Of a DNA stretch of 64,000 nt, positions 7,117 through 62,411 are shown one piece after another (the first letter of the stretch is position 1; every line of letters begins with the position of its first letter). Source of the DNA: Eledone cirrhosa. Lineage: Eukaryota. The notes under the pieces are model-generated. The model saw nothing but the letters and a program-made list of their open reading frames with translations. It was not told where the DNA came from and made no database searches. Location: assembly GCA_964016885.1 (NCBI GenBank), contig OZ024743.1:201500001-201564000 (forward strand), in the 5' to 3' direction. The position numbers were made by a program, and so were the translations under genes.

Positions 7117-7118
<2 letters not shown>

Positions 7119-7290
7119 GAAGTTATATTTAATTTGCCGGGATACAACAAGCAAATATGTTTATAACTGATATAAAGCACTCAACAAATTATTGGAGTAA
7201 AAATACGATATATTAACAAATGGAAACTATATTTATTATATAACTATAATATGGTTTTATAAATATAGTTTCCATATGTTAATATATCGT
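7117..7290. mobile_element. Family A 3'-end fragment with short fold-back, in (TA)n
   Basis: Matches the reverse complement of 21090-21224 and matches 62008-62135. 7205-7237 is inverted at about 7258-7290. Confidence 0.75.
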
Positions 7291-7367
7291 ATATATATAT
7301 ATATATATATCAATGATATTAATAAATGGAAACTATCTTTATAAAACCATATTTATTTTATTATATA

Positions 7368-8376
7368 CTAGCAGTGGTACCCGGCGTTGCACAGGATAAG
7401 GTATTTTGGAACACGGGCCGTCAACAGACCTAATCGTGGAAAAACTGCATGCCTCGACAATATATAAAGAAAATAAACTGAATACTCTGATGGCTGGATA
7501 ATCTTTAAGATTTTCCTCGATGATGCAGGAAAAATGCAGGTTTTCACCTAATGCGGGCTCTAGGGCATCAAGAAAATGAATTTTTTTTATGTGCATAATA
7601 TACCTTGAAATTTCGGGAAAATCGGCTAGACGTAACGCCTAAAAAAAGCCCTATAAAGCTGAAAAAATGAAGTTTTTCACCTAATGCGGGCCCTAGGCCA
7701 TAACAAAGTTGGATTTTCTTTGCTCATCTACAATACTAAGCGGTAAAATAGTAACTTTTGTTCTCGTAAAGGCACGTAAGTAAGCAACACTGTGTAAACT
7801 GAAGTTATTATAGCAATGTTTTTCTTTACCGGCTTTAATTTTTAGTGTTGTGTGAAATATATAACCGCCTTAGCTAAGCTTAGTATTGCCACAACCACAG
7901 CTGGCAAAGAAGTAAGGCTCTGGTGGTATGTAAGTAAGCAACACTGTTGCTTAAAACGTGAGGAAGAAGTTGTGTGCATTTACCAACTGTTTGGGGAATG
8001 AGTGAGATTTGTCTTGAGCAAGGGTGGCAGAATAACCGGAGGCAGCAGACAGCCAGACATACAGACAGATATTATAAGGGCGTGTTCTGGATGCAGAGGA
8101 AAGTGTGGGCAGTGACGTAATGCAGACAGCCAGATATACAGACAGATATTATAAGGGCGCAACGTTATATGTATGTATCTATCTAAAAAGAGAAAGACTA
8201 AGAATTATAGAGAGAGATCGTTAAATCGCCTAATGCGGTCCCTAGGACATTGAAGCTTTGAAATTTCTTTGCTCAGAAAACTCCCTGAAACATAAGTATT
8301 ACATGTGTAATGTTTCAAAACAGTCGGTTGGGTACTTCTCGAGTTTTAGGGATTCAAAGTTTTATATATATATAGA
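7368..8376 (-). mobile_element. Non-autonomous Helitron (about 1.0 kb)
   Basis: The minus strand starts TCTATATATATATAAAA and ends with hairpin CCTGTGCAACGCCGGG then ...GCTAG. It is inserted between A and T with no TSD, and the flanks rejoin into contiguous family A sequence. Internal repeats: CCTAATGCGG x3, GCAGACAGCCAGA..AAGGGCG x2. Confidence 0.85.
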
Positions 8377-8424
8377 TATTTCAAGGGCACCAAGATTTTT
8401 GGTACGCACTCATCAAATAAAATA
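8377..8424 (-). ncRNA. Hammerhead ribozyme remnant (family A), split by the Helitron, with C3>U
   Basis: TATTTTAT-TTGATGA-stem II-GAAATA here. The remaining TATATA-ATAAAATA lies at 7354-7367. Confidence 0.7.
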
Positions 8425-8550
8425 CAACATTTTTTTTATAGAGAGTGACGTATCCAAAACAAGAACTTATCATTTTAAGTTCAATTTGAATTGAACTTAA
8501 AACGATAAGTTCTTGTTTGGGATATGTCACTATCTGTAAAACATCTTTTG

Positions 8551-8614
8551 TATTTTATCTGATGAGAGCATACCAAAAATGTTGGTACCCTTGAAATATA
8601 TATATAATAAAATA
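8551..8614 (+). ncRNA. Type I hammerhead ribozyme motif (family A)
   Basis: TATTTTAT CTGATGA GAGCATACCAA-AAATG-TTGGTACCCTT GAAA TATATATA TA ATAAAATA. Stem I is 8 bp and the core is intact. Confidence 0.8.
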
Positions 8615-8621
8615 AATAAGG

Positions 8622-8672
<51 letters not shown>

Positions 8673-9697: not shown

Positions 9698-10713
9698 TAT
9701 ATATATATGAATATATATATATATGAATGTATGTATAGAAGTATACATATGAATATACATATGAATGTATGTATAGTATATTTGATAATATACTGTATGT
9801 TTAATTAAAAATATTTTTAAGACCATTCGTTATTAACTTTAAAGTAGTGATTAAAGTCACTTACTTATTCTCAGCAAAACAAAGGGGAATAATTGGCAGT
9901 CCTGTTTCTCGCTCGTTAGCGGATATCAAGACTACTCACCCCTTCGCTTCTGCCGAGAATTATAGAAGCTGGATTCTTATAGAATTCCAGTAATGTTTAA
10001 GAGCTGATTAAACTTAATATATTAAACTTAAGCCAAAATCTCATTTTGGTGGGATATAAGTCAAATTGGCTAAAAAAAAAAAAGAAAAAAATCAGCCTTA
10101 ACTTATGTAATACCCTGAACATGGCTTCTGAAATCAATTCAAGATACAACATCAGGAACTCCAACAAATATTAAATTCTTCCAATATTGTATATATATAT
10201 ATATATATATATAAAAAACATGAGAAGAAAGAAGAATACTGCGTGGTTTGCACATGGGTTACATATGATAAAAATAGTCCTTCGTCAGTGATTTTCCAAC
10301 CATCATTGGTATTTCATCGCATTAAAAATCAGATACCTCAGGTTGGTGTGAGCAATAACTAAAAAAAGTTATTGGGACCAGTAATTCGCGTAAAGTGAGG
10401 GGGACAAGTATATATATATATATATATATATATAAACCATCTATTATATTATATTATATTCTATATCGTACTGTAATTCTCGCATTATATTACCATTTGT
10501 GTTTCAAGTTTTTGCATTATACAATATTTGCAATGTGGGTTCAACATGTTAATCACTTCCTTGCTATTTGGTCCATATCTATGTTTGTAACTGCTCACTC
10601 TTAATCTTAGCCAACTTTTCCTTGATATCTTTCCTAAGCTTTAATAGATGTATACTCCATATTCTTCTGAGTTTTTGGCTTGTATTGGCCGATAGTGCTT
10701 CTTGTAGCTTTAC

Positions 10714-10755
10714 TTGCCCTGATGAGTCCTTAATAGGACGAAACATTGTTGGCTA
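10714..10755 (+). ncRNA. Minimal type I hammerhead ribozyme motif
   Basis: GCC CTGATGA GTCCT-TAAT-AGGAC GAAA C-ATT-G TT GGC, followed by AATAAA. Confidence 0.75.
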
Positions 10756-10902
10756 ATAAAGACTTTTGATGTATTGAAGGCTTCTTTGATTTATTTTTTA
10801 TAATTCTTCGGCTCTGTTTAATTACATTGAGCTATATCTTATACTGTCATTTCTATGATATGAAGAGGGTGTTTAACTCCAACACACTCTAGTATTTTAA
10901 TT

Positions 10903-11638: not shown

Positions 11639-11709
11639 TATTTTATTATGCGCATTTCAAAAACAAATATCATCCTGGGATGATAGTTGCATTCTCATCA
11701 GATAAAATA
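11639..11709 (-). ncRNA. Type I hammerhead ribozyme motif with palindromic stem III
   Basis: Minus strand: TATTTTAT CTGATGA GAATGCAAC-TATCATC-CCAG-GATGATA-TTTGTTTTT GAA ATGCGCAT A ATAAAATA. Confidence 0.8.
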
Positions 11710-11781: not shown

Positions 11782-11819
<38 letters not shown>

Positions 11820-13477: not shown

Positions 13478-13621
13478 GTAAGAATATTTTCGAAACAGCG
13501 AGTGGATTTGAAATTATTAGAAATGTAAGCTATCGCCGTAATTTGACTAAAGAAATTAAAGAAATTATATAGCCTGATAGTGGGGTTAAGAACCCTCGGA
13601 GAAATGGAAAAAGATGAGTAT

Positions 13622-13693
13622 TGACGTACATGGGAGTTGAACCCACATCTTTGGTTATCCGGACCACTCTGATACCATTTACACCAACACACC
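13622..13693 (-). pseudogene. Second, more decayed copy of the tRNA-like unit
   Basis: Reverse-complement arm of the above, with D-stem and T-loop substitutions. Confidence 0.7.
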
Positions 13694-13719
13694 ACATGAT
13701 GGCTACATTGGTAAAATGT

Positions 13720-13791
13720 GATGTGTTGGTGTAAATGGTAGCACAGTGGTCCGGATAACCAAAGATGTGGGTTCGACTCCCATGTATGTCA
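13720..13791 (+). pseudogene. tRNA-like cloverleaf (SINE head or tRNA pseudogene) followed by TTTTT
   Basis: GATGTGT TG GTGT-AAATGGTA-GCAC A GTGGT-CCGGATA-ACCAA AGAT GTGGG-TTCGACT-CCCAT GTATGTC A. A and B boxes are present, the anticodon loop is non-canonical, and T5 lies at 13801-13805. Confidence 0.75.
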
Positions 13792-13916
13792 ATACTCATC
13801 TTTTTCCATTTCTCCGAGGGTTCTTAACCCCACTATCAGGCTAAATAATTTCTTTAATTTCTTTAGTCAAAATACGGCGATAGCTTACATTTCTAATAAT
13901 ATATATATATATATAT

Positions 13917-15186
13917 ATCATCATCATCATCATCATCGTTTAACGTCCGTGTTCCACGCTTGCATGGGTTTGGACGGGGGTTTTCCCACTTGAGGCAAGA
14001 GTGGTTGTCATTGCTCGCATAGGACTGTCTGGCAGGTTTTCTACGGCTGGATGCCCTTCCTAACACCAACCACATTTACAGTGTTGACTGGGAGGTTTTT
14101 ACCGTGTTGCCTACACGGCCACATTACAGCGTGAACTGTGTGTTTTTTTGTCGTGACACCTACACGATCTCATTTGTTTCGGCCTGGATGTTGTGGCACC
14201 AACATAACTTTACATTGAAAGGGGCGGTGTGGATGGGGTGGGGGTGGTATGACGGGGGCGTATTTTGTTAGAGATGCCTACTGACTGTAGTAGGTTTACT
14301 TTGTATTTAGGCAAGGCGGGTCTTCTCTATTACTGAGTACCGCCAAAGATCTCGGTCCAGTGACATTGTCTTGGAGAGGTGTAAGTGTGTGAGGTCGAAA
14401 TTTATCAGGTCGTCCCAGGTTTTTCTGGGTCTGCCTACTCCGTGGCTACCGTCTATCTTTATTGCCCTGCACTTTTTTATACTGCTGTCGTCTTTCATGC
14501 GCATCACGTGACCATACCAACGTAGCCTTCTCTCAAGTAAACAACATCTGATCCCTCTTATTTCTAAATTTTTCCTTAGTTCGTTTATGCTTTGCTGTTC
14601 ACGTATATTACTATTACACATCCAGCGGAGCATGCAAGCTTTGTTCCTCTCTAGTCTGCATATATCCTCTGCACACAATGCCCAGGTCTCACTGCCATGC
14701 AACATTGCTGTTCGTATGCAGGCATCATACAACCTGCCTTTCATTTTTAGGGAGAACCCTTTAGCGGCTAATAGTGGTATAAGCTCTCTGAACTTTTTCC
14801 ATCCAGTTCTGACTCTAGCTACTGTACTTTCAGAGCACCCTCCCCCACTGCTGATTTTGTCACCCAGGTAACGGAAGCTGTCCACTATTTCTATAGAACC
14901 CTCTGCGCAATTGAAAGAGCTAGTATTTTGTGGGCACTTGCTGCTACTTATTGCACCAGAGCACCGGCCACATGTAAAATCTATGTTCTTAGTTAGCTTA
15001 CCTGTGATCCCACTACATCTTTTATGCACCCATACTTTGCATTTGGGACATAAAATGGAGTTTCTACCTACGCCTTTCCTACACACTGAGCATGGCCATT
15101 TCCCGGAAGGGACCGGTGCCTTATTTTCTTTCCTACAAACTAGAACTTTAGTCTTAGCCAGGTTAATTTAAAGCCTTTTGTTTCTA
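13917..15186 (-). mobile_element. 5'-truncated RTE-clade LINE (family RTE-1)
   Basis: ORF 14307-15086 is nearly identical to the C-terminus of 23549-24472, with 3' UTR and (GAT)n tail. Confidence 0.95.
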
Positions 15187-18146: not shown

Positions 18147-18189
18147 GGGTGGAGATTTAGGTTTATAGAAGTGTGGCAACTGTGTTTCA

Positions 18190-18241
<52 letters not shown>

Positions 18242-18283
18242 AAACACAGTTTCCACACATCTATAGACCTAAATCTCCACCCA
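18146..18283. repeat. Inverted repeat of about 42 bp enclosing a (TA)n tract
   Basis: TGGGTGGAGATTTAGGTTTATAGA..CTGTGTTT pairs with AAACACAG..TCTATAGACCTAAATCTCCACCCA. Confidence 0.85.
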
Positions 18284-20819
18284 AACACAGTCAAACATAC
18301 TTTATAGATTCAGAAACAATGAAATGTCAGCTATATTTGTATCTGTAAAATCCTTTTGTGTCTCGATGCTTTCAACACAATATTCATAACAAACTGATCA
18401 ACAAGCAACTAACTGCACGCTGCTTCTGCTGCATGTAATGGTTATTGTCTTACTATTGCCATTGTATTTCAATGTAACGTGTAGTTTGATTATCAAGAAG
18501 AAAATGACAAACATTTTCAACAGAAATGAACAAATAATGCCTGCTGGCAGTTTTTCGTTCATTTTGTTGTTGCGATTATCACCATTATTATTGTTTTTCT
18601 CCTTATTACTTGTTTGCTGTTAATTTTTCCTTATATTTTTTTTTTCGTTTTGTCTTTGTTTTTGATTTCTACCTTGTATTATTATTATTAGTAATAATAT
18701 TTTTTTTTTTTTACCTTGTTGTTTTACTAATCTTCAGTTGTTGCTTAGTTACCTTACATCTCTTGCTTTGCTGGTTTGTCTAATATCTCAGACTCTTTTC
18801 TTTGAAGATAATGCTCATCTTTTTAGATATTTTCTCAAGTTATATCAGGAATTTAAAAAAAAAAAAAAATTGCTAAACAAAACAAAATAAAACAAAAGAA
18901 ATATTACAAAAGCCCCCTTCCCATCCTATTAAAAACAAAATAAAAAATAAAAAATATATATAAGGAAAGAAATAAAAGGCAGCAAAATATTTTTCCAAAA
19001 AATATTGGAAAAATAAAAGAAAACTCACACCAATTTAGAAAAGAAAAAAATTAATTTTCCGCCATGAAATTCGGAGAAATGATTTTAATTTTACTCCTAT
19101 ATTGATTGAAACATTTCAGAGAATGGAATAGTTTGAAAACAATTCTGAGGCATGTCAGCAAACATTTTAAATAAACACTTTATTAAACATCTTAAGGAAT
19201 GAACAAATATTTGTTCAGTCAAATTAAGAAAGAAGTTAATTTCTCACAGAAAAAAACAAACAAACAAACAAAAAACAAAACAAAGAAAGCAAAACAAATT
19301 ACAATAAAATAATAAATGAAAAATAAATAAAATGAAAAAAGAAGAGAAAGAACAGCAACAACTACAACATCAACAACAATAACAATAATATTAACAATCT
19401 CGAAATACATAAAAACTGTGTGATGTATTCAGAGCCAAGCAAGTAATGTTTGAAATAATGGCTTGGGTGTAATTCTTAAGATTAGAACTACACCATTCAT
19501 CTAATTAGAACAACATTGCTAATCTGTCTTTTATTGTTGAAGAATTTGATCTAAGTTCTGTTATGACCATTTGTTTATAAATCCATGGCAGATAAAATAA
19601 TACACGCACAAAAAAAAAACTTAATAATAAATGAAAATAAATAAATGAAAATGAAAACTTTTTTTAAATGGATATTATCGTTTTTATTTCGAATTTTTTT
19701 AAATTAAAAAAAAATTTTAAGATTGTTTTTTAAGAAAGCATGTTTGGAAAACAGTAAAAATTTCATTTATATTTTTTTCTGGTGTTTTCCTCTTTGTTAA
19801 TAATCTAATTACTCTTCGTCATTGTGTATGGCAGAGCAATATGAAAATATGTATAAATAAAATTTAATAATAAAGAGAGATGTGGAAATACGCAATCACA
19901 TACTCACACATTATTACCACCAACAATATCAATATTGTCATCACTGCCGCCATCATCATCATCACCACCACCACCACAATTAAGATCATCATCATCATCA
20001 GCATCACGCTCATCATCATCATCATCATCATTTCTACCATTATCGACATTGTCATCACTGTCATCATCATCATCGTCATCATCACCTCCATCACTTCTAC
20101 CATTATTATCATCATCATTATCTTCACCATCACCACAACTACCACCAACATAATCATCATCATCATCATCACTACCGTCGTAATCTTCTTCACCATCACC
20201 ACCACTATTGTAACCACAACCTTCATCAATAGTATTTTATATCATCTTTATTGTTTTTGCATTCATTTTTGTATCATGGCATGAGTAAGACAGCAATTCT
20301 CCATTCAATTCAATGCTCTTGTATCTCTGTTAGGTTCTAATATTTAGTTTTTCAGTGAACCTTTATCATGAGTTACTTTTAACATAAAACCACAGCAACT
20401 GCAATTTTATTTGTATTCTATATACACCATTCCTTATAATAAGCAGCAAATTGACAGTCATAGGAATGTCAAATAGAATACTTTGCAATATTTATTCCAG
20501 ATCTCTGTGACTTCCACTTTTCTAAGTACCAGTCCAAATTCTTCCTCTGTATATTTTTGTACTTCCTTTCTTCCCTTGAGAGAAATCAGATATGTTCAGA
20601 CCTAGAAAGTGGATAGGCTCCACCAGATTTTAACAATGATCATATGTCATGACCATGACTTTACTATTCCATTAGGAGTTACAGGTCCTACATATATATA
20701 TATATATATCATCATCATCGTTTAACGTCCATCTTCCACGCTAGCATGGGTCTGGAAAATATATATATATATATATACAATATATTAATAAATGGAAACT
20801 ATATTTATAAAACCATATT

Positions 20820-20885
20820 TATTTTATTATACATATTTCAAGGGCGACCAAGGCAAATTATGGTGCACTTTCATCAGATAAAATA
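20820..20885 (-). ncRNA. Type I hammerhead ribozyme motif (family A)
   Basis: Minus strand: TATTTTAT CTGATGA AAGTGCACCA..TGGTCGCCCTT GAAA TATGTA TA ATAAAATA. Confidence 0.8.
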
Positions 20886-21024
20886 CAGATTTGTTTTATA
20901 AATAAATATTGACATACCCGGAAAAAAGACGACCTTAACGGTTGGAGCTTCCCGGACTATCTAGGAAGCTCCAACCGCTAAGGTTGTCTTTTTTCCGTCA
21001 ATATTTATTTATAAAACAAATCTG

Positions 21025-21090
21025 TATTTTATCTGATAAAAGTGCACCATAATTTGCCTTGGTTGCCCTTGAAATATGTATAATAAAATA
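21025..21090 (+). ncRNA. Hammerhead motif (family A) with G8>A core mutation
   Basis: As above, but CTGATAA instead of CTGATGA. Confidence 0.7.
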
Positions 21091-21221
21091 AATATGGTTT
21101 TATAAATATAGTTTCCATTTTTTAATATATTGTGTTTTTACTCCACTAACTTGTTGAGTGCTTTATATCAGTTATAAAAATGTTTAAGCTTGTTGAATCC
21201 CAACAAATTAAATATAACCTC

Positions 21222-21256
<35 letters not shown>

Positions 21257-21389
21257 CAAAGAGGGTGTGGTAAGATACCAGGTGGACAATAACGCACCAG
21301 AGTACTGGATCTTGCTGTTGAAATGGCCGGAGCTCAGCCATCGGGGTCCTGACTCTTTTCCTATATATGTATATATATATATATATATA

Positions 21390-24300
21390 TCCCATCCCCC
21401 TCACCCATCCCTGCGCCCCATCCTCCAAACACAATCCAAAGCTTCAGAGTTGGTACCATAAATGTAGGCACCTTAAAAGGCCGCTCTAACGAGGTTGTAG
21501 AAATGCTTGAACGTAAGGAGGTTGATGTTTGCTGTATCCAAGAGACCAGGTGGAGGGGCGGCTCTGCTAGATTCATTGTGGGTAAAAAACGTTGCTATAA
21601 GCTTTTCTGGGTGGGAAATGACAATGGGATAGGTGGGGTAGGAATCATGTTAGCAGAAAAATGGGTGGATAAGATAATAGATGTAAATAGAGTAAATGAT
21701 AGAATAATTAAAATAAGACTTGTTCTAAATAGAACTACTGTGACAGTAATATCGGCATACGCGCCCCAATCCGGACTGCCTGGCACTATAAAAGACAGAT
21801 TCTATGAGACACTGATGCTCACTACCTCCCAAATAACCGACAGTGACTATATAATTATTGCTGGCGACCTAAATGGCCACGTTGGTCAACATTGTGACGG
21901 CTATGATGGAATCCACGGAGGCTATGGGTTTGGTACTAGAAATGAGGAAGGCTCCAGAATCCTGGAATTCTGTGATGCAAATAACCTAACTATCTGTAAC
22001 ACTAACTTCAAAAAACGAGACAATCACTTGATCACCTACAGATCAGGGGAACATACCAGCCAGGTAGATTATATCCTTACCAGAAGATGTGACAGAGTGT
22101 CTGTTGTAAACACTAAATCCCTCCCCCATGAAGAATGCACCTCCCAACATAGACTGATAATTAGTGACCTCATAGTCAGGACGAGACGTACTCGACAGCA
22201 GAAGAGGACTATCCTCAGGAGAAAAATATGGAAGGACACCACAGCCAGAAATAAATTTCAAAGCATATTACTTGATGCTTTCGACAGTAAGGAAGAGCAA
22301 TTAGAGTTGTACAATATAGAGGAACAGTGGGGATTCCTGAAAGCAAACCTGCTGATGGCGGCAGACGAAGTCTGTGGCTGGAGCAGGCCTGTAGGCAGGA
22401 GGAGAGTAACATGGTGGTGGAACAGTAAGGTGGAGGAGTCAATTAAGGCCAAAAAGCAGGCTTGGAAAGTATGGCGGGATGGGGGAAGTAGAGAAGACTA
22501 TCAAGTGGCCAGGAGGGAAGCTAGGAGACAAGTGTACTTCGCAAGAAGGGAAGCAGAGGAAAGAAAGTTCAAGCATATTCTACAACTTGAGGACCAAAAA
22601 CGTGAGATGTTCAGGATTGTTAGGCAATGTGTCAAGGAAAACCGTGATATTGTCGGGAAGAAGTGTGTACTTAACGATGATGGTGTACTTGCCATCACTG
22701 ACGCTGATAAGAAGGTAGCTTGGAAGTGTGACTACGAAAGGCTACTAAATGAGGAGAATAAATGGGAGAAAGACAGTCTACCCCACATCGACCCAATAGA
22801 GGGACCAGCAGTGTTAGTCGAAGGTAGTATAATAAGTAAAGCAATCAAAGATATGAAGACGGGTAAGGCGGCTGGGCCTTCGGAAATAGTTGCTGAAATG
22901 CTGAAAGCCTCTGGAACGGTGGGACACACCATGGTCACCCAGATAGTAAACCAAGTCATAAAGAATGGGGTTGTTCCGAAGGACTGGCATAGCAGCATCA
23001 TCATTAACTGCTATAAGGGTAAAGGAGACGCCCTAGATAGGAGTAACTATAGAGGCATTAAATTAATCGACCAGGTCATGAAGGTCACGGAAAAAGTAAT
23101 AGCGCAGCTAATCAGAGAGAGAATCGATCTAGATGAAATGCAGTTCGGGTTTGTGTCAGGCAAAAGTACCACAGATGCTCTTTTCATTGTACGACAACTA
23201 CAGGAGAAGTACCTAGCTAAAAGTAAACCCCTATACTTAGCTTTCGTCGACTTGGAGAAAGCCTTCGACAGAGTCCCCCATTCCATTATCTGGTGGGCTC
23301 TTGGAAAACTAGGTGTTGACGAATGGCTTGTGAGAGCTATACAAGCCATGTATAAAGAAAGAGTCAGCAAGGTTAGAATTAACAACGAATATAGTGAAGA
23401 GTTTAGCGTAAAAGTTGGTGTTCATCAGGGCTCTGTTCTTAGCCCCCTACTATTTATTATTGCCCTTCAGGCTATAACAGTGGAGTTCAATACCGGCTGC
23501 CCATAGGAACTCCTATACGCAGATGATCTAACGCTCATAGCTGAATCAATGGCCGAGCTAGAGAAGAAATTCCAAACATGGAAGCACGGCCTAGAATCAA
23601 AAGGCCTTAAAATTAACCTGGCTAAGACTAAAGTTCTAGTTTGTAGGAAAGAAAATAAGGTGCCGGTCCCTTCCGGGAAATGGCCATGCTCAGTGTGTAG
23701 GAAAGGCGTAGGTAGAAACTCCATTTTATGTCCCAAATGCAAAGTATGGGTGCATAAAAGATGTAGTGGGATCATAGGTAAGCTAACTAAGAACATAGAT
23801 TTTACATGTGGCCGGTGCTCTGGTGCAATAAGTAGCAGCAAGTGCCCACAAAATACTAGCTCTTTCAATTGCGCAGAGGGTTCTATAGAAATAGTGGACA
23901 GCTTCCGTTACATGGGTGACAAAATCAGCAGTGGGGGAGGGTGCTCTGAAAGTACAGTAGCTAGAGTCAGAACTGGATGGAAAATGTTCAGAGAGCTTAT
24001 ACCACTATTAGCCGCTAAAGGGTTCTCCCTAAAAATGAAAGGCAGGCTGTATGATGTCTGCATACGAACAGCAATGTTGCATGGCAGTGAGACCTGGGCA
24101 TTGTGTGTAGAGGATATATGCAGACTAGAGAGGAACAAAGCTTGCATGCTCCGCTGGATGTGTAATAGTAATATACGTGAACGGCAAAGCATAAACGAAC
24201 TAAGGAAAAAATTAGAAATAAGAGGGATCAGATGTTGTTTACTCAAGAGAAGGCTACGTTGGTATGGTCACGTGATGCGCATGAAAGACGACAGCAGTAT

Positions 24301-24868
24301 AAAAAAGTGCAGGGCAATAAAGATAGACGGTAGCCACGGAGTAGGCAGACCCAGAAAAACCTGGGACGACCTGATAAACTCTGACCTCACACACTTACAC
24401 CTCTCCAAGACAATGTCACTGGACCGAGATGTTTGGCGGCACTCAGTAATAGAGAAGACACGCCTTACTTAAATACAAAGTAAAACCTACTACAGTCAGT
24501 AGGCATCTCTAACAAAATACACCCCTGTCCCTCCACCCCCACCCCATCCACACCGCCCCTTTCAATGTAAAGTTATGTTGATGCCACAACATCCAGGCCG
24601 AAACAAATGAGATCGTGTAGGTGTCACGACAAAAAAAACACACAGTCCACGCTGTAATGTGGCCGTGTAGGCAATACGGTAAAAACCTCCCAGTCCACAC
24701 TGTAAATGTGGTTGGTGTTAGGAAGGGCATCCAGCTGTAGAAAACCCGCCAGACAGTCCTATGTGAGCAAGACAACCACTCTTGCCTCAAGTGGGAAAAC
24801 TCCCGTCCAAACCCATGCAAGCGTGGAACACGGACGTTAAACGATGATGATGATGATGATGATAATGA
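21390..24868 (+). mobile_element. Near-complete RTE-clade LINE (RTE-1): AP endonuclease, RT, 3' UTR and (GAT)n tail
   Basis: APE motifs (GTINVG, IQETRW, SAYAP, GDLNGHVG, VDYIL, SQH), RT motifs (FVDLEKAFD, QGSVLSP, YADD) and the RTE C-terminus RLRWYGHV..GRPRKTW. Confidence 0.97.
21443..24472 (+). pseudogene. RTE APE-RT polyprotein ORF broken by one TGG>TAG stop at 23504-23506
   Basis: ORFs 21503-23506 and 23549-24472 are in the same frame. The copy at 44.27 kb reads CPWELLYADD at this position. Confidence 0.93.
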
Positions 24869-29838: not shown

Positions 29839-30103
29839 GTAGAAGTTATATTTAATTTGTTGGGATAAAACAAGCAAATATTTTTATAACTGATATAAAG
29901 CACTCAACAAATATGACTATCCGGGAGCTTCCAACAGACATGGTCGCATTCTTTTAAGGGTATGTCAATATTTGTTTATAAAACTGATCTATATTATATT
30001 TTATCTGATGAAAGCACACCATAATTTGCTTTGGTGTCCTTGAAATATGTATAAGGAAATAAATATGGTTTTATAAATATAGTTTCCATTTATTAATATA
30101 TTG
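29839..30103. mobile_element. Family A copy: inverted 3' piece joined to a forward copy
   Basis: 29839-29912 is the reverse complement of the family A 3' end. 29915-30103 is colinear with 20955-21132. Confidence 0.8.
29997..30061 (+). ncRNA. Type I hammerhead ribozyme motif (family A)
   Basis: TATTTTAT CTGATGA AAGCACACCA..TGGTGTCCTT GAAA TATGTA TA AGGAAATA. Confidence 0.75.
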
Positions 30104-30138
<35 letters not shown>

Positions 30139-30619
30139 ATCATGATGATGATGATGATGATGATGATGACGACAATGATGAAGATGATGACAATGAAGTG
30201 GTGGTGGTGGTGATGAAAATGATGATGATCGTGATAATGATTGCAATGATGATGATGATGGTGGTGGTGGTAGTGGTGGTGTTGGTGGTGGTGTTATGTG
30301 GTTGTGGTGATGATGATGATGGTGGTGTTGGTGATGGTGGTGGTGATGGTGGTGATGGTGTTGGTGGTGGTTGTTATGCGGCGGTGGTGGTGGTTGTTAT
30401 GTGGTGGTGGTGATGAGGATGATGATCAAGATGATAATGACAATAGTGATGATGAATAAGAGGCAAAGATGGAAGAAGAAATTGGAAAAGGAAAAATAGA
30501 GAAAAGAACAATAAGATTAAATCAACCTAATGTATGAGTGTGTATGTGTATGTATGTGTTTATGTGTGTATGTGTGTGAGTGTGTTAATGTATGCAACTG
30601 TTTGCTTAGGTGTAGGTAA

Positions 30620-33600
30620 GTATATGTCTGTATATGTATGTGTGTCTCGTGTGTCTGTGTATGTCTATATATGTGTGTGTGTGTCTGTGTATGTCTGTAT
30701 ATGTATGTGTGTCTCGTGTGTCTCTGTATGTCCATATATGTGTGTATGTCTGTGTATGTCTGTATATGTATGTGTGTCTCGTGTGTCTGTGTATGTCTAT
30801 ATATGTGTGTGTATGTCTGAGTATGTCTGTATATGTATGTGTGTCTCGTGTGTCTCTGTATGTCTATATATGTGTGTATGTCTGTGTATGTCTGTATATA
30901 TATGTGTGTCTCGTGTGTCTCTGTATGTCTATATATGTGTGTATGTCTGTGTATGTCTGTATATGTATGTGTGTCTCGTGTGTCTCTGTATGTCTATATA
31001 TGTGTGTATGTCTGTGTATGTCTGTATATGTATGTGTGTCTCGTGTGTCTGTGTATGTCTATATATGTGTGTATGTCTGTGTATGTCTGTATATGTATGT
31101 GTGTCTCGTGTGTCTCTGTATGTCCATATATGTGTGTATGTCTGTGTATGTCTGTATATGTATGTGTGTCTCGTGTGTCTGTGTATGTCTATATATGTGT
31201 GTATGTCTGTGTATGTCTGTATATGTATGTGTGTCTCGTGTGTCTGTGTATGTCTATATATGTGTGTATGTCTGTGTATGTCTGTATATGTATGTGTGTC
31301 TCGTGTGTCTGTGTATGTCTATATATGTGTGTATGTCTGTGTATGTCTGTATATGTATGTGTGTCTCGTGTGTCTCTGTATGTCTATATATGTGTGTATG
31401 TCTGTGTATGTCTGTATATATATGTGTGTCTCGTGTGTCTCTGTATGTCTATATATGTGTGTATGTCTGTGTATGTCTGTATATGTATGTGTGTCTCGTG
31501 TGTCTGTGTATGTCTATATATGTGTGTATGTCTGTGTATGTCTGTATATGTATGTGTGTCTCGTGTGTCTGTGTATGTCTATATATGTGTGTGTATGTCT
31601 GTGTATGTCTGTATATGTATGTGTGTCTCGTGTGTCTCTGTATGTCCATATATGTGTGTATGTCTGTGTATGTCTGTATATGTATGTGTGTCTCGTGTGT
31701 CTCTGTATGTCCATATATGTGTGTATGTCTGTGTATGTCTGTATATGTATGTGTGTCTCGTGTGTCTCTGTATGTCTATATATGTGTGTATGTCTGTGTA
31801 TGTCTGTATATGTATGTGTGTCTCGTGTGTCTGTGTATGTCTATATATGTGTGTATGTCTGTGTATGTCTGTATATGTATGTGTGTCTCGTGTGTCTCTG
31901 TATGTCTATATATGTGTGTGTATGTCTGTGTATGTCTGTATATGTATGTGTGTCTCGTGTGTCTCTGTATGTCTATATATGTGTGTATGTCTGTGTATGT
32001 CTGTATATGTATGTGTGTCTCGTGTGTCTGTGTATGTCTATATATGTGTGTGTATGTCTGTGTATGTCTGTATATGTATGTGTGTCTCGTGTGTCTCTGT
32101 ATGTCCATATATGTGTGTATGTCTGTGTATGTCTGTATATGTGTGTGTATGTCTGTGTATGTCTGTATATGTATGTGTGTCTCGTGTGTCTCTGTATGTC
32201 TATATATGTGTGTATGTCTGTGTATGTCTGTATATGTATGTGTGTCTCGTGTGTCTCTGTATGTCCATATATGTGTGTATGTCTGTGTATGTCTGTATAT
32301 GTATGTGTGTCTCGTGTGTCTCTGTATGTCTATATATGTGTGTGTATGTCTGTGTATGTCTGTATATGTATGTGTGTCTCGTGTGTCTCTGTATGTCTAT
32401 ATATGTGTGTATGTCTGTGTATGTCTGTATATGTATGTGTGTCTCGTGTGTCTCTGTATGTCTATATATGTGTGTATGTCTGTGTATGTCTGTATATGTA
32501 TGTGTGTCTCGTGTGTCTCTGTATGTCTATATATGTGTGTATGTCTGTGTATGTCTGTATATGTATGTGTGTCTCGTGTGTCTCTGTATGTCCATATATG
32601 TGTGTATGTCTGTGTATGTCTGTATATGTATGTGTGTCTCGTGTGTCTCTGTATGTCTATATATGTGTGTATGTCTGTGTGTGTCTGTATATGTATGTGT
32701 GTCTCGTGTGTCTCTGTATGTGTGTATGTGTATGTGTATCTCGTGTGTCTGTGTGTAAATGTATGTGTGTCTCATCTGTCTCTGTATGTGTGTGTATATG
32801 TATGTGTGTCTCGTGTGTCTCTGTATGTGTGTGTATATGTATGTGTGTCTCATGTGTCTCTGTATGTGTGTATATGTATGTGTGTCTCGTGTGTATATGT
32901 ATGTGTGTCTCGTGTGTCTCTGTATGTGTGTCTCGTGTGTCTGTGTGTATATGTATGTGTGTCTTGTGTGTCTCTGTATGTGTGTATATGTATGTGTGTC
33001 TTGTGTGTCTCTGTATGTGTGTATATGTATGTGTGTCTTGTGTGTCTCTGTATGTGTGTATATGTATGTGTGTCTTGTGTGTCTCTGTATGTGTGTATAT
33101 GTATGTGTGTCTTGTGTGTCTCTGTATGTGTGTATATGTATGTGTGTCTTGTGTGTCTCTGTATGTGTGTATATGTATGTGTGTCTTGTGTGTCTCTGTA
33201 TGTGTGTATATGTGTATATGTATGTGTGTCTCATGTGTCTCTGCATGTCTGTATATGTATGTGTATCTCGTGTGTCTGTGTGTATATGTATGTGTGTCTG
33301 TATATGTGTGTATATGTATGTGTGTCTCATGCATCTGTGTATGTCTATATATGTATGTGTGTCTGTGTATGTTTATATATGTCTATATATGTATGTGTGT
33401 ATGTGTGTATGTGTATGTGTGTGTGTCTGTATATGTATGTGTGTCTCGTGTGTCTGTGTATGTCTGTATATGTATGTGTGCCTTGTGTGTCTCTGTATGT
33501 CTGTATATGTCTATGTATGTATGTGTGTGTGTATGTGTATATATGGTAGTGTACATGTATGTATGTGTGTGTGTATATATGGTAGTGTACATGTATGTGT

Positions 33601-38565: not shown

Positions 38566-41360
38566 CTTTGAGTCTCAGTCATTGATGTTAGTTAACTGGA
38601 AAGTTTGTTGAAATGAATATCAAGCCACTACCTGCAGCCTCAGATATTCAGGATGTATCGGAGGGTTCTTGCTGTTCCCAGCAAGCATGCCTTTTGAAGT
38701 GTTCCAAAAAGCGGAGTGGTGCCAATTTTCTTTAACCATCCCTGGAAACTTTTTGAGATAGTCCCTAGTGCGCCTATGACAATCGGGACCACTTTGACTT
38801 CATGGCAGTTCCAAATCCTTTTTACCTCCCACTTTAAGTCCTGGTATCGGTTAATTATCTCCCTCTCCTTCTCTTGCACTCTTGTGTCGAATGGGCAGGC
38901 CACATCCACAATCAGGCACAATCTTTTTTCCTTGTCCAAAACCACCAGGTCAGGTCTATTGTGTTCCAGTTTCTTGTCCGTCTGTATCCTAAAATCCCAC
39001 AGCACCTTCATCTGATCGTTTTCTATCACCGACTCTGGCTTATGCTCATACCACTTCTCAGAATGTGGTAAATTGTTTACTTGCATAGGTGCCAGTGGAT
39101 CACACTGCCCATCACATCATGTCTCCAGCCTTTATAGTGGGTCTGGGCTTGGTGTTTACACTCGGATACAATGTGAGCCACAGTCTCCTCTCTCTCTCCA
39201 CATATCCTGCACAGTGGGCTAGCCTCCTCCTTGTAAATATGGTGTTTCAGCTACTTCGTTTTGAGGGCTGCTCTTGCGCAACCATTAGCATTCCTTCTGT
39301 AGTCTTTTTAAGATCTCCTCTTTTCAACCAGTTCCATGTCTGTGGATCTCTGAATTCCGTTTTCTCAAAGAAGGTACTATGAAGGGATTTTTCATGAAGG
39401 TTGCTCTTTCTCCTCGTTGTTATTTCCTCATTGGACATCCCCTGGTCTATTGTCCTCTCCTTCAGTACAATTCTGAGCATTGGCTCCTTACTATTGGTCA
39501 CATATTTGTGTAGGTTGTTTTTCTCTATCTGAACACAATCCTCTATGCTGATAAGGCGTCTTCCACCTTCAGATCTCCTTAAGTAGAGTCTATCGACATC
39601 ACTCCTCTTGTGGAACATGATGTAGATAGTCAATAGCTTCCTAGTCTTCCTATCCATTTCTTTTTGTTCAGCAACATTCCATCTCAGAATTCCCGCACTG
39701 TACCTAATAATAGACACAGCTCGGGAATTTACTGCACTTATGGCATTCCTACTGTTCAGATGTGACTTTGATATGCTCCTTACTCTCCGAATGTATTCAG
39801 ATCTTATCAATTCCTTCATTCTTTTGTTCTTGATGTCATCAGCCAGCAGAATACCCAAATACTTGTATCCTTCTTCAGTATCAATTTCCTTTATCATCTC
39901 ACCTGTTGGTACCTGGATTCCGTTGCTTCTGCTCAATTTACCCCTCTTCATCACAAGGACTCCACACTTACTAATACCAAATTGCATACATATATCATTG
40001 CTGAAAATATGGACAGTGTCAACAAGCACATCCAACTCCTTCTCACTCTTCCCAAAGAGCTTAAGATTGTCCATGAAGAGGAGGTGATTGATGGTAAGCT
40101 CTCCCTTTCCCAACTTGTATCCTGCTCTCACTTTTCGCAGTATAATGGTCAGGGGCATCAGGGCAAGGACAAACACAGAGGGGACACACTATCTCCCTGG
40201 AAGATAGCTCTTTTGATCTTCACGCCTCCCACGGATTCTCCAGCTGATGTTAACTCTGTTTTCCAGGACTTCATACTTTTGCTCAACAACTGTCTGATGT
40301 TATCTGCCACCTTGAAGATCTCCAGGCTTTTGGTGATCCAAGAATGAGGCACCATATCAAATGCCTTTTTGTAGTCTATCCATCCCATGGCAAGACCAGT
40401 GTGTCTCCTCTTGCAATTCCTCATTACCATCTTATCAATAAGTAACTGGTCCTTTGTACCACGGGACTTCTTTCGGCATCCTTTCTGTTCGTCCGGTAAC
40501 AAGTTGTTTGTGTGGAGGTGATGGTAGATTTCCTCAGACACAATGCTTGCCAACAGTTTCCACATTATGGACAGACATGTGATAGGTCTATAGTTGGTAA
40601 CATCATTACCCTTGATTCGGTCTTTCATTACCAGAACTGTGGTACCTTTTGTCAACCACTCTGGTACCTCACCTGGCATCAAGCAGTCATTGAACATGGT
40701 TGTCAGTTTCGGGTGGAGGGATGTTACATTTTTAATCCAATACCCCTGCACACCATCTGGACCTGGTGATTTCCAGTTGGTTAGTTTTTTGGCCTGCCCC
40801 TTGAGAGTTTCAACTGTGATACTCAAATCAGTTTGTTGGTGTGCCTGTTCACTAATCTCCTTTTGTACTGTCTCAATCCACACTGCCTGGTCATTATGTT
40901 TAACATCCTGCTCCCATATTCCTCTCCAGAATGTCTTAGTTTGTTCCGCCTCAGGGATCAAGTCGTTGCCTCTTTCTTTCCCTTCAAGCTGTCCAAACAA
41001 CATCTTCTGGTTGTTGTCAAACATTCGGTTCTGTCTATACTGACTGACTCTGCTCTCGTATCGCCTAATTTTTGCACTCTTTGCTACAATGCGTTGCTTC
41101 AGTTCCTCTATGATAATATTTAGCCTTTTCCTCCTAGTTTTGTACTTTATTTCCAGTCTATTTTTAGTGTCTATGTTTTTTAGTGTCCCATTCAGTAGGG
41201 ACTCAAGCTTACCAATGTCATTTCTCATTTCCCTGATTTGACCATTCAGTTGTTTCTTCCACCAAGGTTCTGATCTTTCTTGTTTGTTGTTTCCTCTTGC
41301 TTTTATGCCAAGTAATTTTCTCACCGCATTTGCTGTTGCTTTGAGGATATTGTTGCACTG
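38566..41360 (-). mobile_element. 5'-truncated R4/Dong-like non-LTR retrotransposon (RT, CCHC knuckle, restriction-like endonuclease), frameshifted
   Basis: KSPGPDG, NYRPITCL, IDYKKAFD, FQGDSVSP, LLFMDN, CRICG..HIVSEC, RHD, RPDLVVLD..IVDVACP. (AAT)n tail, inserted in TAA repeats. Confidence 0.93.
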
Positions 41361-41367
41361 ATTATTA

Positions 41368-41398
<31 letters not shown>

Positions 41399-41435
41399 TA
41401 TTATTATTGTTAGCCCTTGTGGCCAATAAAGAAAC

Positions 41436-41471
<36 letters not shown>

Positions 41472-42202
41472 TATTATTATTATTATTACTATTATTATTA
41501 TTATTATTATTATTTCCCCCACCTACAAGTACCTCACCACCCTAACAAGTATACAGAAATGCTTTTTTTTATAAATTTAATTAAAATCCAGCCTTGTATT
41601 CAAGATATCTCTAATCCTCAAAAAGAACTGAAATGAAAAAAAAAAAAACCCCATAAAAATGGGGGAAAAAAAGAAAAGAAGAGAAGGTAGAGAGAAGGAG
41701 AGAATGTCACGTTGATGAAATAAACATCAACAACATCACTAACAAATATATGTTTGTTTCTTTTGGGTGTTAATGGCTCTGTTTTTCTTCACAGTTAAAT
41801 ACTAATTAAGGTCAAGGTTGAAACAGACTCTAAGCCTCATTTATGTTTCTGCTTCAGTTTCACAGGTTCCACAATTACAATGATGTTTTATATCTAATAT
41901 TTAAGAGAATACAAAACAAAATTAAACAAAAAACAGAAATAAAAAAAATAACAAAATAAGACATTACAAGTGCCAGATACATACACATACATAGTAGCAC
42001 ATGTATATATACATACACACACACAGGCACATATATACATTCATGCTATATTTTATAGAGCTTTTGCTATAGAAATGAAGTTTAAAGTCATGGAAGGATA
42101 AATTAACAAACACACTACAATAACTTTATAAACATTTTACTCTCTTAGGTTTATTCAGTATTTATATTTGTTCATGACAATTCTTGGGATTTAAGTTATA
42201 TA

Positions 42203-43592: not shown

Positions 43593-43874
43593 TTAACTTG
43601 ACTGTTGGTGTCTGATGGCAGCCACATTGTCAAATAACACCCCTATCAGAAGGTACAAGCATATCTTCTACATACTAGATACAAAATCTTACGATTTTTA
43701 AAAACCAGATTAAGAATAAGAAAAAGTATGTTGTGATGTTCATGACATTACCAATGGGGTATTTTAAGAATAAATAGAAACTGTTATGTGAGCAAAGTTC
43801 CACAAGAACTCTACACTACATTCCTCAATATTTCTTTGTTTCTCCCCTTCTCTCTCTCTCTCTTATATATATAT

Positions 43875-45610
43875 ATCAGAGAGCGAATTGATCTAGATGA
43901 AATGCAGTTCGGGTTTGTGTCAGGAAAAAGTACCACAGACGCTCTTTTCATTGTACGACAACTACAGGAGAAGTACCTAGCTAAAAGTAAACCCCTATAC
44001 TTAGCTTTCGTCGACTTGGAGAAGGCCTTCGACAGAGTCCCCCGTTCCATTATCTGGTGGGCTCTTAGAAAACTAGGTGTTGATGAATGGCTTGTGAGAG
44101 CTATACAAGCCATGTATAAAGAAACAGTTAGCAAGGTTAGAATTAACAACGAATATAGTCAAGAGTTTAGTGTAAAAGTTGGTGTTCATCAGGGCTCTGT
44201 TCTTAGCCCCCTACTATTTATTATTGCCCTCCAGGCTATAACAGTGGAGTTCAAGACCGGCTGCCCATGGGAACTCCTATACGCAGATGATCTAACGCTC
44301 ATAGCTGAATCAATGGCCGAGCTAGAGAAGAAATTCCAAACATGGAAGCACGGCCTAGAATCAAAAGGCCTTAAAATTAACCTAGCTAAGACTAAAGTTC
44401 TAGTTTGTAAGAAAGAAAATAAGGTGGCGGTCCCCTCCGGGAAGTGGCCATGCGCAGAGTGTAGGAAAGGCGTAGGTAGAAATTCCATTTTGTGTCCCAA
44501 ATGCAAAGTTTGGGTGCATAAAAGATGTAGTGGGATCACAGGTAAGCTAACTAAGAACATAGATTTTACATGTGGCCGGTGTTCTGGGGATATAAGTAGC
44601 AGCAAGTGCCCACAAAATACTAGCTCTTTCAACTGCGCAGAGGGTTCTATAGAAATAGTGGACAGCTTCCGTTACCTGGGTGACAAAATCAGCAGTGGGG
44701 GAGGGTGCTCTGAAAGTACAGTAGCTAGAGTCAGAACTGGGTGGAAAAAGTTCAGAGAGCTTATACCACTATTAGCCGCTAAAGGGTTCTCCCTAAAAAT
44801 GAAAGGCAGGCTGTACGATGCCTGCATACGAACAGCAATGTTGCATGGCAGTGAGACCTGAGCATTGTGTGCAGAGGATATACGCAGACTAGAGAGAAAC
44901 GAAGCTTGCATGCTCCGCTGGATGTGTAATAGTAATATACGTGAACGACAAAGCATAAACGAACTAAGGAAAAAATTAGAAATAAGAGTGATCAGATGTT
45001 GTTTACTAGAGAGAAGGCTACGTTGGTATGGTCACGTGATGCGCATGAAGGATGATAGCTGTATAACAAAGTGCAGGGCAATAAAGATAGACGGTAGCCA
45101 CGGAATAGGCAGACCCAGAAAAACCTGGGACGAGCTGATAAACACCGACCTCACACACTTACACCTCACCAAGACAATGTCACTGGACCGAGACCTTTGG
45201 CGGTACTCAGTAATAGAGAAGACCCGCCTTGCCAGTAGGCATTTCTAACAAAATACACCCCGTCCCACCACCACCACCCCCACCCCATCTGCACCGCCCC
45301 GTTCTATGTAAAGTTTTGTTGGTGCCGCGCCATCCAGGCCGAAACAAATGAGATCGTGTAGGTGTCACGACAAAAAAAACACACAGTCCACGCTGTAATG
45401 TGGCCGTGTAGGCAACACGGTAAAAACCTCCCAGACCCACACTGTAAATGTGGTTGGTGTTAGGAAGGGCATCCAACTGTAGAAAACCTGCCAGACAGTC
45501 CTATGCGAGCAAGAAAATCACTCTTGCCTCAAGTGGGACTACCCCCGTCCAAACCCATGCAAGCGTGGAACACGGATGTTAAACGTTGATGATGATGATG
45601 ATGATGATGA
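43875..45610 (+). mobile_element. 5'-truncated RTE-1 LINE
   Basis: RT to C-terminus, with TGG>TGA at 44859-44861 and a short deletion removing the stop codon. 3' UTR and (GAT)n tail present. Confidence 0.95.
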
Positions 45611-58954: not shown

Positions 58955-59798
58955 TAAAGTATGTCCATAGAACCATTTCCTCTCCCAATTAGCATAATTA
59001 ACCACATAAAAAATCAATTAAACCAGGCTATAAGATTAAAAGGCTCCTATGAAGAAATATTTGATAAATAAATGACAGCAGCCTCTTCGCAGCCGACCGC
59101 AATAGAATATTTACCCAACATTTCAACAGCACGTGGAAATCGACTAAATATACCGTCAACCATACACAATTAGGTATAAAATTAAAGTTAAAAGAAATGC
59201 GTACACTCTTACCAAGATTTTGTCTATACCCTCGGGTTTCGTTTGCGTTTTGAGATATCCTATTAAGGATAAAATATCGAGTTTCGAACTCATCAGGAAA
59301 CAAACTCATAGGACATGTAATTTTCCAAAGCGATCCCCACCAGAAACAGATTCAAAATGGCTAAGAATTGCAAACGAAACCAAAGGGTAGAGACATAATC
59401 CTGGTAAGAGTGTACGCATTTCTTCTACCTTTAATTTTATACCTAATTGTGTATGGTTGACGGTATATTTAGTCGATTTCCACGTGCTGTTGAAATGTTG
59501 GGTAAATATTCTATTGCGGACGGCCGCGAAGAGGCTGCTGTCGTTTATTTATCAAATATTTCTTCATAGGAGCCTTTTAATCTTATAGTCTGGTTTAATT
59601 GATTTTTTACGTGGTTAATTATGCTAATTGGGAGAGGAAATGGTGTATATATATTATCAAATGATTCTATGGACATACTTTATGATATATTGGTCTGATT
59701 ATTTAATTTATTAATTCTTCATTGAGCCACATCGTGAATCGTTGCCAAAACATATATATCTGTGACTTTGTTTAGTTTGTGTATATGTAAACCTTTAT
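58955..59798. mobile_element. Family F fold-back copy
   Basis: About 58975-59245 is inverted at about 59370-59642. Homologous to 383-1440. Confidence 0.8.
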
Positions 59799-61985: not shown

Positions 61986-62139
61986 TATATATATATATAT
62001 ATATATGCAGAGGTTATATTTAATTTGTTGGGATCAACAAGCTTAAACATTTTTATAACTGATATAAAGCACTCAACAAATTAGTGGAGTAAATATTCAA
62101 TATATTAATAAATGGAAACTATATTTATAAAACCATAAT

Positions 62140-62205
62140 TATTTTATTATATATATTTCAAGGGCAACCGAGGCGAATTTTGGTGCACTTTCATCAGATA
62201 AAATA
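62140..62205 (-). ncRNA. Type I hammerhead ribozyme motif (family A)
   Basis: Minus strand: TATTTTAT CTGATGA AAGTGCACCA..CGGTTGCCCTT GAA ATATATAT A ATAAAATA. Confidence 0.8.
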
Positions 62206-62286
62206 CAAATTTGTTTTATATCCAGCGAACCTCAATCGTTAAGGTTGTCTTTTTGCGGGTATGTCAATATTTATAAAACAAATTTG

Positions 62287-62352
62287 TATTTTATCTGATG
62301 AAAGCGCACCAAAATTCGCCTTGGTTGCTCTTGAAATATATATAATAAAATA
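62287..62352 (+). ncRNA. Type I hammerhead ribozyme motif (family A)
   Basis: TATTTTAT CTGATGA AAGCGCACCA..TGGTTGCTCTT GAA ATATATAT A ATAAAATA. Confidence 0.8.
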
Positions 62353-62411
62353 ATTATGGTTTTATAAATATAGTTTCCATTTATTAATATATTGAATATA
62401 TATATATATAT

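What the first reader, a model, noticed from the sequence alone, without database searches (positions are those of the whole stretch)
20778..21224. Family A always occurs as divergent head-to-head fold-backs, usually with two outward-facing hammerheads
Seen: at 7311-8630, 20778-21224 and 62008-62398 the left arm has a minus-strand hammerhead and the right arm a plus-strand one, and both 3' ends run into (TA)n. 29839-30103 and 7117-7290 are partial versions. Inversion points and arm lengths differ at each locus. Inference: the inversion is created anew at each insertion, as with the inverted 5' segments known for Penelope-like elements, so this is not a fixed-TIR MITE. A read-through transcript would be long dsRNA that masks the ribozyme and could be an ADAR or siRNA substrate.
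Basis: partly seen in the sequence, partly recalled or inferred. Interest (0 to 1): 0.75.

Follow-up and report, generated by a model that had tools for sequence, protein, structure and literature searches.

The report
Twin-ended Penelope retrotransposon insertion stubs
The hairpins are real, short leftovers of a known kind of jumping gene (a Penelope-like retrotransposon); about half of its copies are mirror-image pairs, nearly always with one long and one short end, likely because both cut DNA ends start copying the element's RNA at two fixed points.

Summary
The fold-backs exist, but 'always' is wrong: 6 of 15 insertions in 800 kb of unselected genome carried an inverted partner. At 20778-21224 only the left hammerhead core is intact. 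Family A is the 3' end (pLTR) of an autonomous Hydra-clade Penelope-like element with an RT-GIY-YIG ORF in this genome. Outer ends sit at two fixed points about 93 nt apart. Of 79 adjacent pairs, 67 were one long plus one short end, none long-long, and 12 not cleanly callable. Inner junctions vary (69 distinct of 74) and pile up at a likely transcription start. Arms share lineage variants. In 44 of 68 pairs neither arm could be copied from the other, favouring twin priming over self-folding. So 'made anew at insertion, not a MITE' holds. No genomic A-to-I signature was seen; transcription was not tested. Inverted pLTR plus one-sided tail is published, and this scan reported the same reading earlier on other DNA of this genome.

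The parts
20778..20956 (-). Inverted 5'-truncated pLTR arm ending at the fixed 'short' 3' end (no tail); inner end 4 nt downstream of the putative start site
   Evidence: locus L001
20956..21224 (+). Direct pLTR arm from the putative start site (+1 = A20956, shared by both arms) to the fixed 'long' 3' end
20820..20885 (-). Type I hammerhead motif, core intact (activity predicted only; short stem III suggests dimer-dependent cleavage)
   Evidence: architecture compared with PMC4209133 passages
21025..21090 (+). Type I hammerhead motif with G8>A at 21038, predicted inactive
   Evidence: other copies read G here
21133..21224 (+). Tail: 92 nt between the short and long ends (about 93-95 in other copies); natively continues ATATAT then ~45 nt to the ORF's ATG; predicted three small hairpins
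20956..20986 (+). Putative internal promoter start: Inr-like CCA(+1)CT context in intact copies and DPE-like GGTTG at +27 to +31 (inferred; consensus motifs recalled, Inr BBCABW seen in an abstract)
20759..20777 (.). (TA)n target tract, left
21225..21256 (.). (TA)n target tract, right
62008..62394 (.). Fold-back: inverted long-end arm (62008-~62221) plus direct short-end arm (~62220-62394); both hammerhead cores intact (62140-62205 minus, 62287-62352 plus)
29839..30103 (.). Fold-back of a second subfamily: inverted tail-only long arm plus direct short arm starting at the putative +1; one hammerhead with a damaged stem I
   Evidence: locus L187
7117..7290 (.). Minimal fold-back: inverted long arm plus direct short arm, both downstream of the hammerhead
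   Evidence: locus L217
7311..8634 (.). Fold-back of a third subfamily: left short-end arm split into 7311-7365 and ~8360-8490 by an unrelated repeat; right arm 8491-8634 stops short in (TA)n
7366..8358 (+). Unrelated dispersed repeat (1361 first-look candidates) inserted in the AT-rich stem III of the left hammerhead; Helitron-derived look is recalled, not tested

Best explanation
These are truncated insertions of a Hydra-clade Penelope-like retrotransposon, likely made when both DNA ends of a cut in (TA)n prime reverse transcription on the element's RNA, one at the short site and one at the long site about 93 nt further 3', and the two partial copies are then joined head to head. Shown: the arms are the element's pLTR, they flank a Hydra-type ORF elsewhere, outer ends are fixed and paired long+short, inner ends vary and carry short microhomologies or small inserts. 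Inferred: double-strand cleavage by the GIY-YIG domain, two separate priming events, joining by microhomology-mediated repair, and run-off at the RNA 5' end as the reason inner ends pile up at the CACTAT(C/T)C motif. Single arms would be events where the second copy is very short or absent. The mirror-image hammerheads are by-products that decay neutrally.
For: Linkage: the arm lies directly before the ATG and after the 3' UTR of ORF-bearing copies. ORF motifs RWR, DKT, YRDD, CxCx5C, YVG, CxxC, CxH match the Hydra definition (PMC8557442 section 11). End rule: 67 of 79 adjacent pairs long+short, 0 long-long; the one short-short call runs into an N gap after the tail begins; 4 were a long inverted piece ahead of an ORF, 1 miscalled long+short, 6 had a broken end. 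12 of 12 long or ORF-bearing insertions with both ends visible (of 26 examined) were long+short, and 4 of 4 tiny inverted remnants were of the opposite type. Independent templating: in 44 of 68 pairs the short arm reaches more than 5 nt further upstream than the long arm, so it cannot be a copy of it, and the long arm holds a tail the short arm lacks. Same source lineage: 48 of 50 pairs same subfamily, 2 unclassed; shared derived bases 17 vs 9.0, 26 vs 9.7, 17 vs 8.2 expected in 2000 permutations. Junctions: 36 of 74 overlap by 1-6 nt, 34 carry inserts. Inner ends: 65 of 148 arms within -1..+13 of the motif, 16 upstream, same motif in three subfamilies. In vitro, a Poseidon PLE cleaves and extends both strands and starts RT at two internal sites bounding the tail (PMC11167929).
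Against: No biochemical or RNA data for this element. The in vitro paper saw no difference in start site between strands, which does not by itself give a strict long+short rule. Same-lineage arms could also come from two RNAs of one master copy, or partly from later gene conversion; one short arm (L010) looks by eye like a mosaic of two subfamilies. The inner-end pile-up is biased: queries needed the central arm to reach +20 to +58, and arms longer than the profile were not counted; in the 5 unselected fold-backs no arm reached the motif. In two of three subfamilies an AATAAA lies 12 nt upstream of the motif, so a polyadenylation cut site is an alternative, and the DPE-like motif is at +27 rather than +28 there. 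Most loci were top hits to window queries, so young copies dominate.
Confidence: 0.72

Rival explanations
1. One cDNA folds back on itself (self-priming, or priming on an antisense template as proposed for Adineta Penelopes) and copies itself to make the inverted arm.
For: Short microhomologies and a few palindromic centres at junctions; self-priming proposed in PMC3846280 (passages). Compatible with the 24 of 68 pairs where the long arm reaches as far upstream as the short arm or further.
Against: In 44 of 68 pairs the short arm holds sequence absent from the long arm; in 11 the long arm is nearly tail only. Inner breakpoints of the two arms are uncorrelated (rho 0.12, p 0.34).
Confidence: 0.1
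2. Two separate RNAs, held by an asymmetric protein or ribozyme dimer, each prime one end; the long+short rule comes from the dimer's geometry, not from one shared RNA.
For: PAc is predicted to be a dimer (PMC11167929); the hammerhead has a short near-palindromic stem III suited to dimers; possible mosaic arm in L010.
Against: No mixed-subfamily pair among 48 classed pairs and strong concordance at linked non-CpG sites (11 of 11, 9 of 9, 7 of 7, 21 of 25). This is a variant of twin priming, not an alternative to it.
Confidence: 0.25
3. A MITE or other non-autonomous palindromic element that moves as a unit by cut-and-paste.
For: Outer ends are fixed, the target is TA, and one junction (+21/0) recurs in 5 loci.
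Against: Ends are asymmetric; 69 of 74 junction pairs are distinct; the recurrent junction occurs with long and short swapped; arms continue into an RT ORF in other copies.
Confidence: 0.02
4. Assembly artefact from fold-back chimeric reads.
For: No long read of this locus could be laid.
Against: Arms differ by several percent with independent CpG decay, and lengths follow a strict long+short rule. One short-read contig of another copy spans a family fold-back centre with over 31 nt each side (run X3 record 24).
Confidence: 0.01
5. Fold-backs are kept as functional dsRNA sources (ADAR or siRNA substrates) that silence the ribozyme or the element.
For: A read-through transcript would fold into a ~175-bp duplex that pairs away both hammerheads. 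Penelope small RNAs are reported in other animals (PMC3846280 passages).
Against: About half of insertions have no inverted arm; hammerhead core positions are no better conserved than neighbours; A>G 20 of 7385 vs T>C 25 of 8324 in sense orientation shows no trace of edited templates. This does not test editing of present-day transcripts.
Confidence: 0.08

Closest known systems
Hydra clade of C-terminal EN+ Penelope-like elements (Craig et al. 2021, PMC8557442), including Hydra-1_Obim
   Same: RW(K/R), DKT, CxCx5C, CxxC/CxH motifs, C-terminal GIY-YIG-type domain, hammerhead in the 3' end, (TA)n targets; motif blocks match Hydra-1_Obim by eye.
   Different: A different family: protein and hammerhead sequence differ from Hydra-1_Obim by eye, which is listed without a pLTR. 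This one has pLTRs, at least three subfamilies, a unit of about 3.9 kb (over the '<3 kb' described) and very roughly 5x10^4 end-bearing insertions (15 in 800 kb).
PLE insertion unit with inverted 5'-truncated pLTR and one-sided tail (Penelope of D. virilis, Pen2a_Av; PMC2377424, PMC3846280, PMC8557442 Fig. 2)
   Same: Head-to-head inverted 5'-truncated copy of variable size, tail at one end, microhomology at 5' junctions, Inr-like TCACT in the pLTR.
   Different: Tail is ~93 nt rather than 30-40 nt; those papers call the tail optional or often one-sided, whereas here it is on exactly one end in every readable fold-back; most copies are ORF-less stubs.
PAc (Poseidon, Anolis) internal RT initiation (Frangieh et al. 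2024, PMC11167929)
   Same: Two internal RT start sites bounding the tail, downstream of the hammerhead; both strands cut and extended; AT-rich target.
   Different: PAc starts lie inside the ORF and are reported not homologous to the target; here both lie upstream of the ATG and the long site is followed by ATATAT that could pair with (TA)n.
L1 twin priming (recalled, not read here)
   Same: Second target strand primes a second cDNA, giving an inversion joined by microhomology.
   Different: In L1 the second primer anneals at variable internal sites and copies non-overlapping sequence; here the second start is fixed and the copies overlap, giving an inverted repeat.

Membership tests
Hydra-clade PLE | Single ORF, RT followed by C-terminal GIY-YIG-type endonuclease | tested here: met
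   743-aa open frame in L057 with RT motifs and NIVY...YVG near the C terminus; YRDD in other copies. Motif reading only: Pfam and PDB searches gave no relevant hit.
Hydra-clade PLE | N-terminal RWK motif; DKG changed to DKT | tested here: met
   RLRWRAF (RWR variant) and KSDKTNNLY in most of 20 ORF loci.
Hydra-clade PLE | CxCx5C linker; CxxC and CxH around conserved E and N; no CCHH | tested here: met
Hydra-clade PLE | Hammerhead motif in the 3' end and (TA)n insertion | tested here: met
   Core columns intact in 166-172 of 172 aligned arms; (TA)n at ends.
Hydra-clade PLE | Phylogenetic placement within Hydra | not tested
   Published Hydra proteins were compared by eye only; no tree was built.
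EN+ PLE insertion structure | Partial tandems forming pLTRs, inverted 5'-truncated copy, one-sided tail | tested here: met
   Tandem pLTR-ORF-pLTR in L057, L061, L064, L065, L070, L076; end rule.
Active hammerhead ribozyme | Self-cleavage | not testable with these tools
   Structure only; stem III is short, so cleavage likely needs a dimer or protein (PMC4209133, PMC11167929).
MITE / TIR DNA transposon | Symmetric fixed TIRs around a constant body | tested here: not met
   Ends asymmetric by ~93 nt, centres variable.
MITE / TIR DNA transposon | Fixed-length TSD | tested here: inconclusive
   Both flanks are (TA)n, so a TSD cannot be read; no empty sites available.
Naiad PLE | N-terminal GIY-YIG, DKA motif, no canonical hammerhead | tested here: not met
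   Endonuclease is C-terminal, motif is DKT, hammerhead present.

The most novel reading that the evidence does not exclude
Every insertion of this element is made by one ribonucleoprotein that primes both ends of a double-strand cut on a single RNA molecule at two hard-wired sites 93 nt apart, mostly in the 5' pLTR copy just downstream of the cap. The genome's tens of thousands of stubs would then record the PLE integration intermediate directly: obligate long+short ends, run-off at the transcription start, and repair-made centres. This would settle how PLE inverted pLTRs and tails form.
Probability: 0.4. Interest if true: 0.6.

Novelty: new member of a known kind. Interest (0 to 1): 0.3.

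Why it matters
How Penelope-like elements make inverted pLTRs and one-sided tails is stated as open in PMC8557442 and only partly addressed in vitro (PMC11167929). A high-copy family with a strict long+short rule, non-nested arms and a mapped inner hot spot gives exact coordinates for an in vitro test and argues against the self-priming model. Practically, such stubs can be misannotated as MITEs or miRNA hairpins (Rfam gave sub-threshold miRNA hits on them). The architecture itself is published and the scan has reached the same reading on other families of this genome, so the gain is incremental.

Tried and rejected
Rfam: no hammerhead match on family A arms, only sub-threshold miRNA hits. First guess of Naiad from the RT fragment was dropped once the domain order was seen. 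Laying short-read contigs and RAD-seq reads could not confirm this exact locus: reads of many copies pile up and only one listed contig, of another copy, bridges a centre. Plain arm-to-arm versus locus-to-locus identity was a weak test (0.040 vs 0.046, Wilcoxon p 0.011) because loci were chosen by likeness to the queries; the shared-variant permutation replaced it. The 'core broken 93 of 215' count is inflated by a pattern that missed one subfamily's stem I, and was not used. Paper searches found no paper stating a strict long+short rule or twin priming for PLEs; the library lacks most subscription journals, and only passages or single sections of the papers were read.

Full report
Observation. 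The locus 20778-21224 is a head-to-head inverted repeat: a minus arm 20778-20956 and a plus arm 20956-21224, both running outward into (TA)n. The same family forms fold-backs at 62008-62394, 29839-30103, 7117-7290 and 7311-8634. Each full arm holds a type I hammerhead shape (stem I TATTTTAT/ATAAAATA, CTGATGA, stem II, GAAA, short near-palindromic stem III), the architecture described for PLE hammerheads (PMC4209133, passages). Both cores are intact only at 62008-62394. At the named locus the right core has G8>A. At 7311-8634 the left core has C3>U and is split by an unrelated ~1 kb dispersed repeat.

Not always a fold-back. I took 80 evenly spaced 10-kb stretches from five large contigs. A profile of the element end found 15 end-bearing insertions in 12 of them, two of them weak: 5 adjacent fold-backs, 1 with a long inverted body, 9 single arms. 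Among 80 unique loci found with tail-free queries (10 duplicates dropped from 90), 50 had an adjacent inverted arm and 4 more a 10-30 nt inverted remnant.

What it is. Longer copies run upstream through an AT-rich UTR into an ORF. A search with that fragment gave 150 scored matches from 13,738 candidates. In 20 extended loci the arm sits after the 3' UTR and, in tandem copies, again just before the ATG, so it is the pLTR. The 743-aa frame of L057 and its relatives carry RWR, DKT, YRDD, CxCx5C, a C-terminal NIVY...YVG region, CxxC and CxH. These are the features listed for the Hydra clade (PMC8557442, section 11 read). The supplement lists an octopus member, Hydra-1_Obim, with the same motif blocks but a different sequence and hammerhead (by eye). 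No tree was built. That the genome is an octopus is a recalled resemblance, not a tool result.

Two fixed ends. Arms stop either at a short end (…ATATATTG) or about 93 nt further at a long end (…AACCTCTGC), whose native continuation is ATATAT. Of 79 unique adjacent divergent pairs, 67 were long+short and none long-long. The other 12: one short-short call that runs into an N gap after the tail begins, one long+short miscalled, four long inverted pieces ahead of an ORF, six with a broken end. Of 26 long loci, 12 showed both outer ends and all 12 were long+short; all 4 tiny remnants were of the opposite type. Published work describes an inverted 5'-truncated copy and a 30-40 bp tail often at one end (PMC8557442, passages; PMC3846280, passages). 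In vitro the tail is bounded by two internal RT start sites, with both strands cut and extended (PMC11167929, main text parts 1-2 read).

Variable centres. In 74 mapped fold-backs there were 69 distinct junction pairs; 36 overlapped by 1-6 nt, 19 had 1-5 nt inserts, 15 longer inserts, 3 longer overlaps, 1 was blunt. Of 148 arms, 65 began within -1..+13 of the A in CACTAT(C/T)C and 16 further upstream. The motif is shared by three diverged subfamilies, each with a DPE-like pentamer at +27 or +28. Penelope has a TATA-less Inr/DPE internal promoter in its pLTR (PMC2377424, passages), so a transcription start with run-off is my reading. Against it: query choice and profile length bias the count, none of the 5 unselected fold-backs reached the motif, and two subfamilies have AATAAA 12 nt upstream.

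How the arms relate. Of 50 pairs with 60 or more shared columns, 48 were of one subfamily and 2 unclassed. Arms shared derived bases about twice as often as permuted pairs (17 vs 9.0, 26 vs 9.7, 17 vs 8.2; p at most 0.0005), while CpG sites were not concordant. So arms start from the same source lineage and then decay separately. L010 has one arm that looks mosaic by eye. In 44 of 68 long+short pairs the short arm reaches further upstream than the long arm, and in 11 the long arm is nearly tail only. Neither arm can then be a copy of the other, which argues against the self-priming model (PMC3846280) as the general route.

Mechanism. Shown: identity of the arms, the ORF link, the end rule, non-nested arms, variable junctions. 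Inferred: double-strand cut in (TA)n, two priming events at the short and long sites, truncation or run-off, microhomology-mediated joining. Whether one RNA or two serve as template is open; the concordance data lean to one RNA or one dominant source.

dsRNA claim. A read-through RNA of 20778-21226 is predicted to form one long duplex that removes both ribozyme folds. Transcription was not tested. In 172 arms, sense-strand A>G (20 of 7385) did not exceed T>C (25 of 8324), so copies were not made from heavily edited RNA. Short-read data did not confirm this exact locus; one contig of another copy spans a centre.

Verdict. A real feature and a new high-copy member of a known clade, with a published architecture. 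Earlier, unchecked scan notes on other DNA of this genome report the same long+short, twin-priming and start-site readings; I had formed this reading before opening them, and they are not independent support. Supplements of the other papers were not opened and may hold related tallies.

Noticed in passing
window 58972-59644: Fold-back of an unrelated family (275-nt arms, 96% complementary) with a hammerhead-like motif on the minus strand near 59302 and only half of it on the other arm; probably another PLE end.
   Followed up: no
window 10703-10773 (+): Canonical-looking hammerhead (CTGATGAG TCC..GGAC GAAAC), Rfam HH9 28.5 bits, below threshold; separate family.
   Followed up: no
window ~11640-11707 (-): Single-arm hammerhead with the same stem I as family A but a different stem II, ending in (TA)n near 11783; likely a diverged subfamily.
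   Followed up: no
window 7366-8358: High-copy repeat starting TACTAGCAGTGGTACCCGG with internal repeats, inserted in an AT tract inside the hammerhead; resembles non-autonomous Helitron-type elements (recalled).
   Followed up: partly
window 21353-24472 (+); also 14307-15167 (-), 43746-45248 (+): RTE-like LINE (APE + RT with an internal Cys-rich insert), nearly intact, beside the fold-back; further fragments elsewhere.
   Followed up: no
window 38640-41522 (-): Broken non-LTR element with RT and a C-terminal restriction-like endonuclease (R4/Dong-like, recalled).
   Followed up: no
window 13605-13800: Near-perfect hairpin of two tRNA-like (SINE-like) heads, Rfam tRNA hits on both strands.
   Followed up: no
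window 30520-33000: 65-nt-period satellite derived from TG/TA microsatellite, copies up to 98-100% alike.
   Followed up: no
window 18151-18278 and 60474-60558: Two other short near-perfect hairpins, one with (TA)n at its centre.
   Followed up: no
L010:1317-1483: Short arm whose outer half looks like one subfamily and inner half like another; template switch or gene conversion.
   Followed up: partly
window 21139-21157 (tail): ACTCC...GAGT hairpin just after the short end is kept in all subfamilies examined; may position the short start site.
   Followed up: partly
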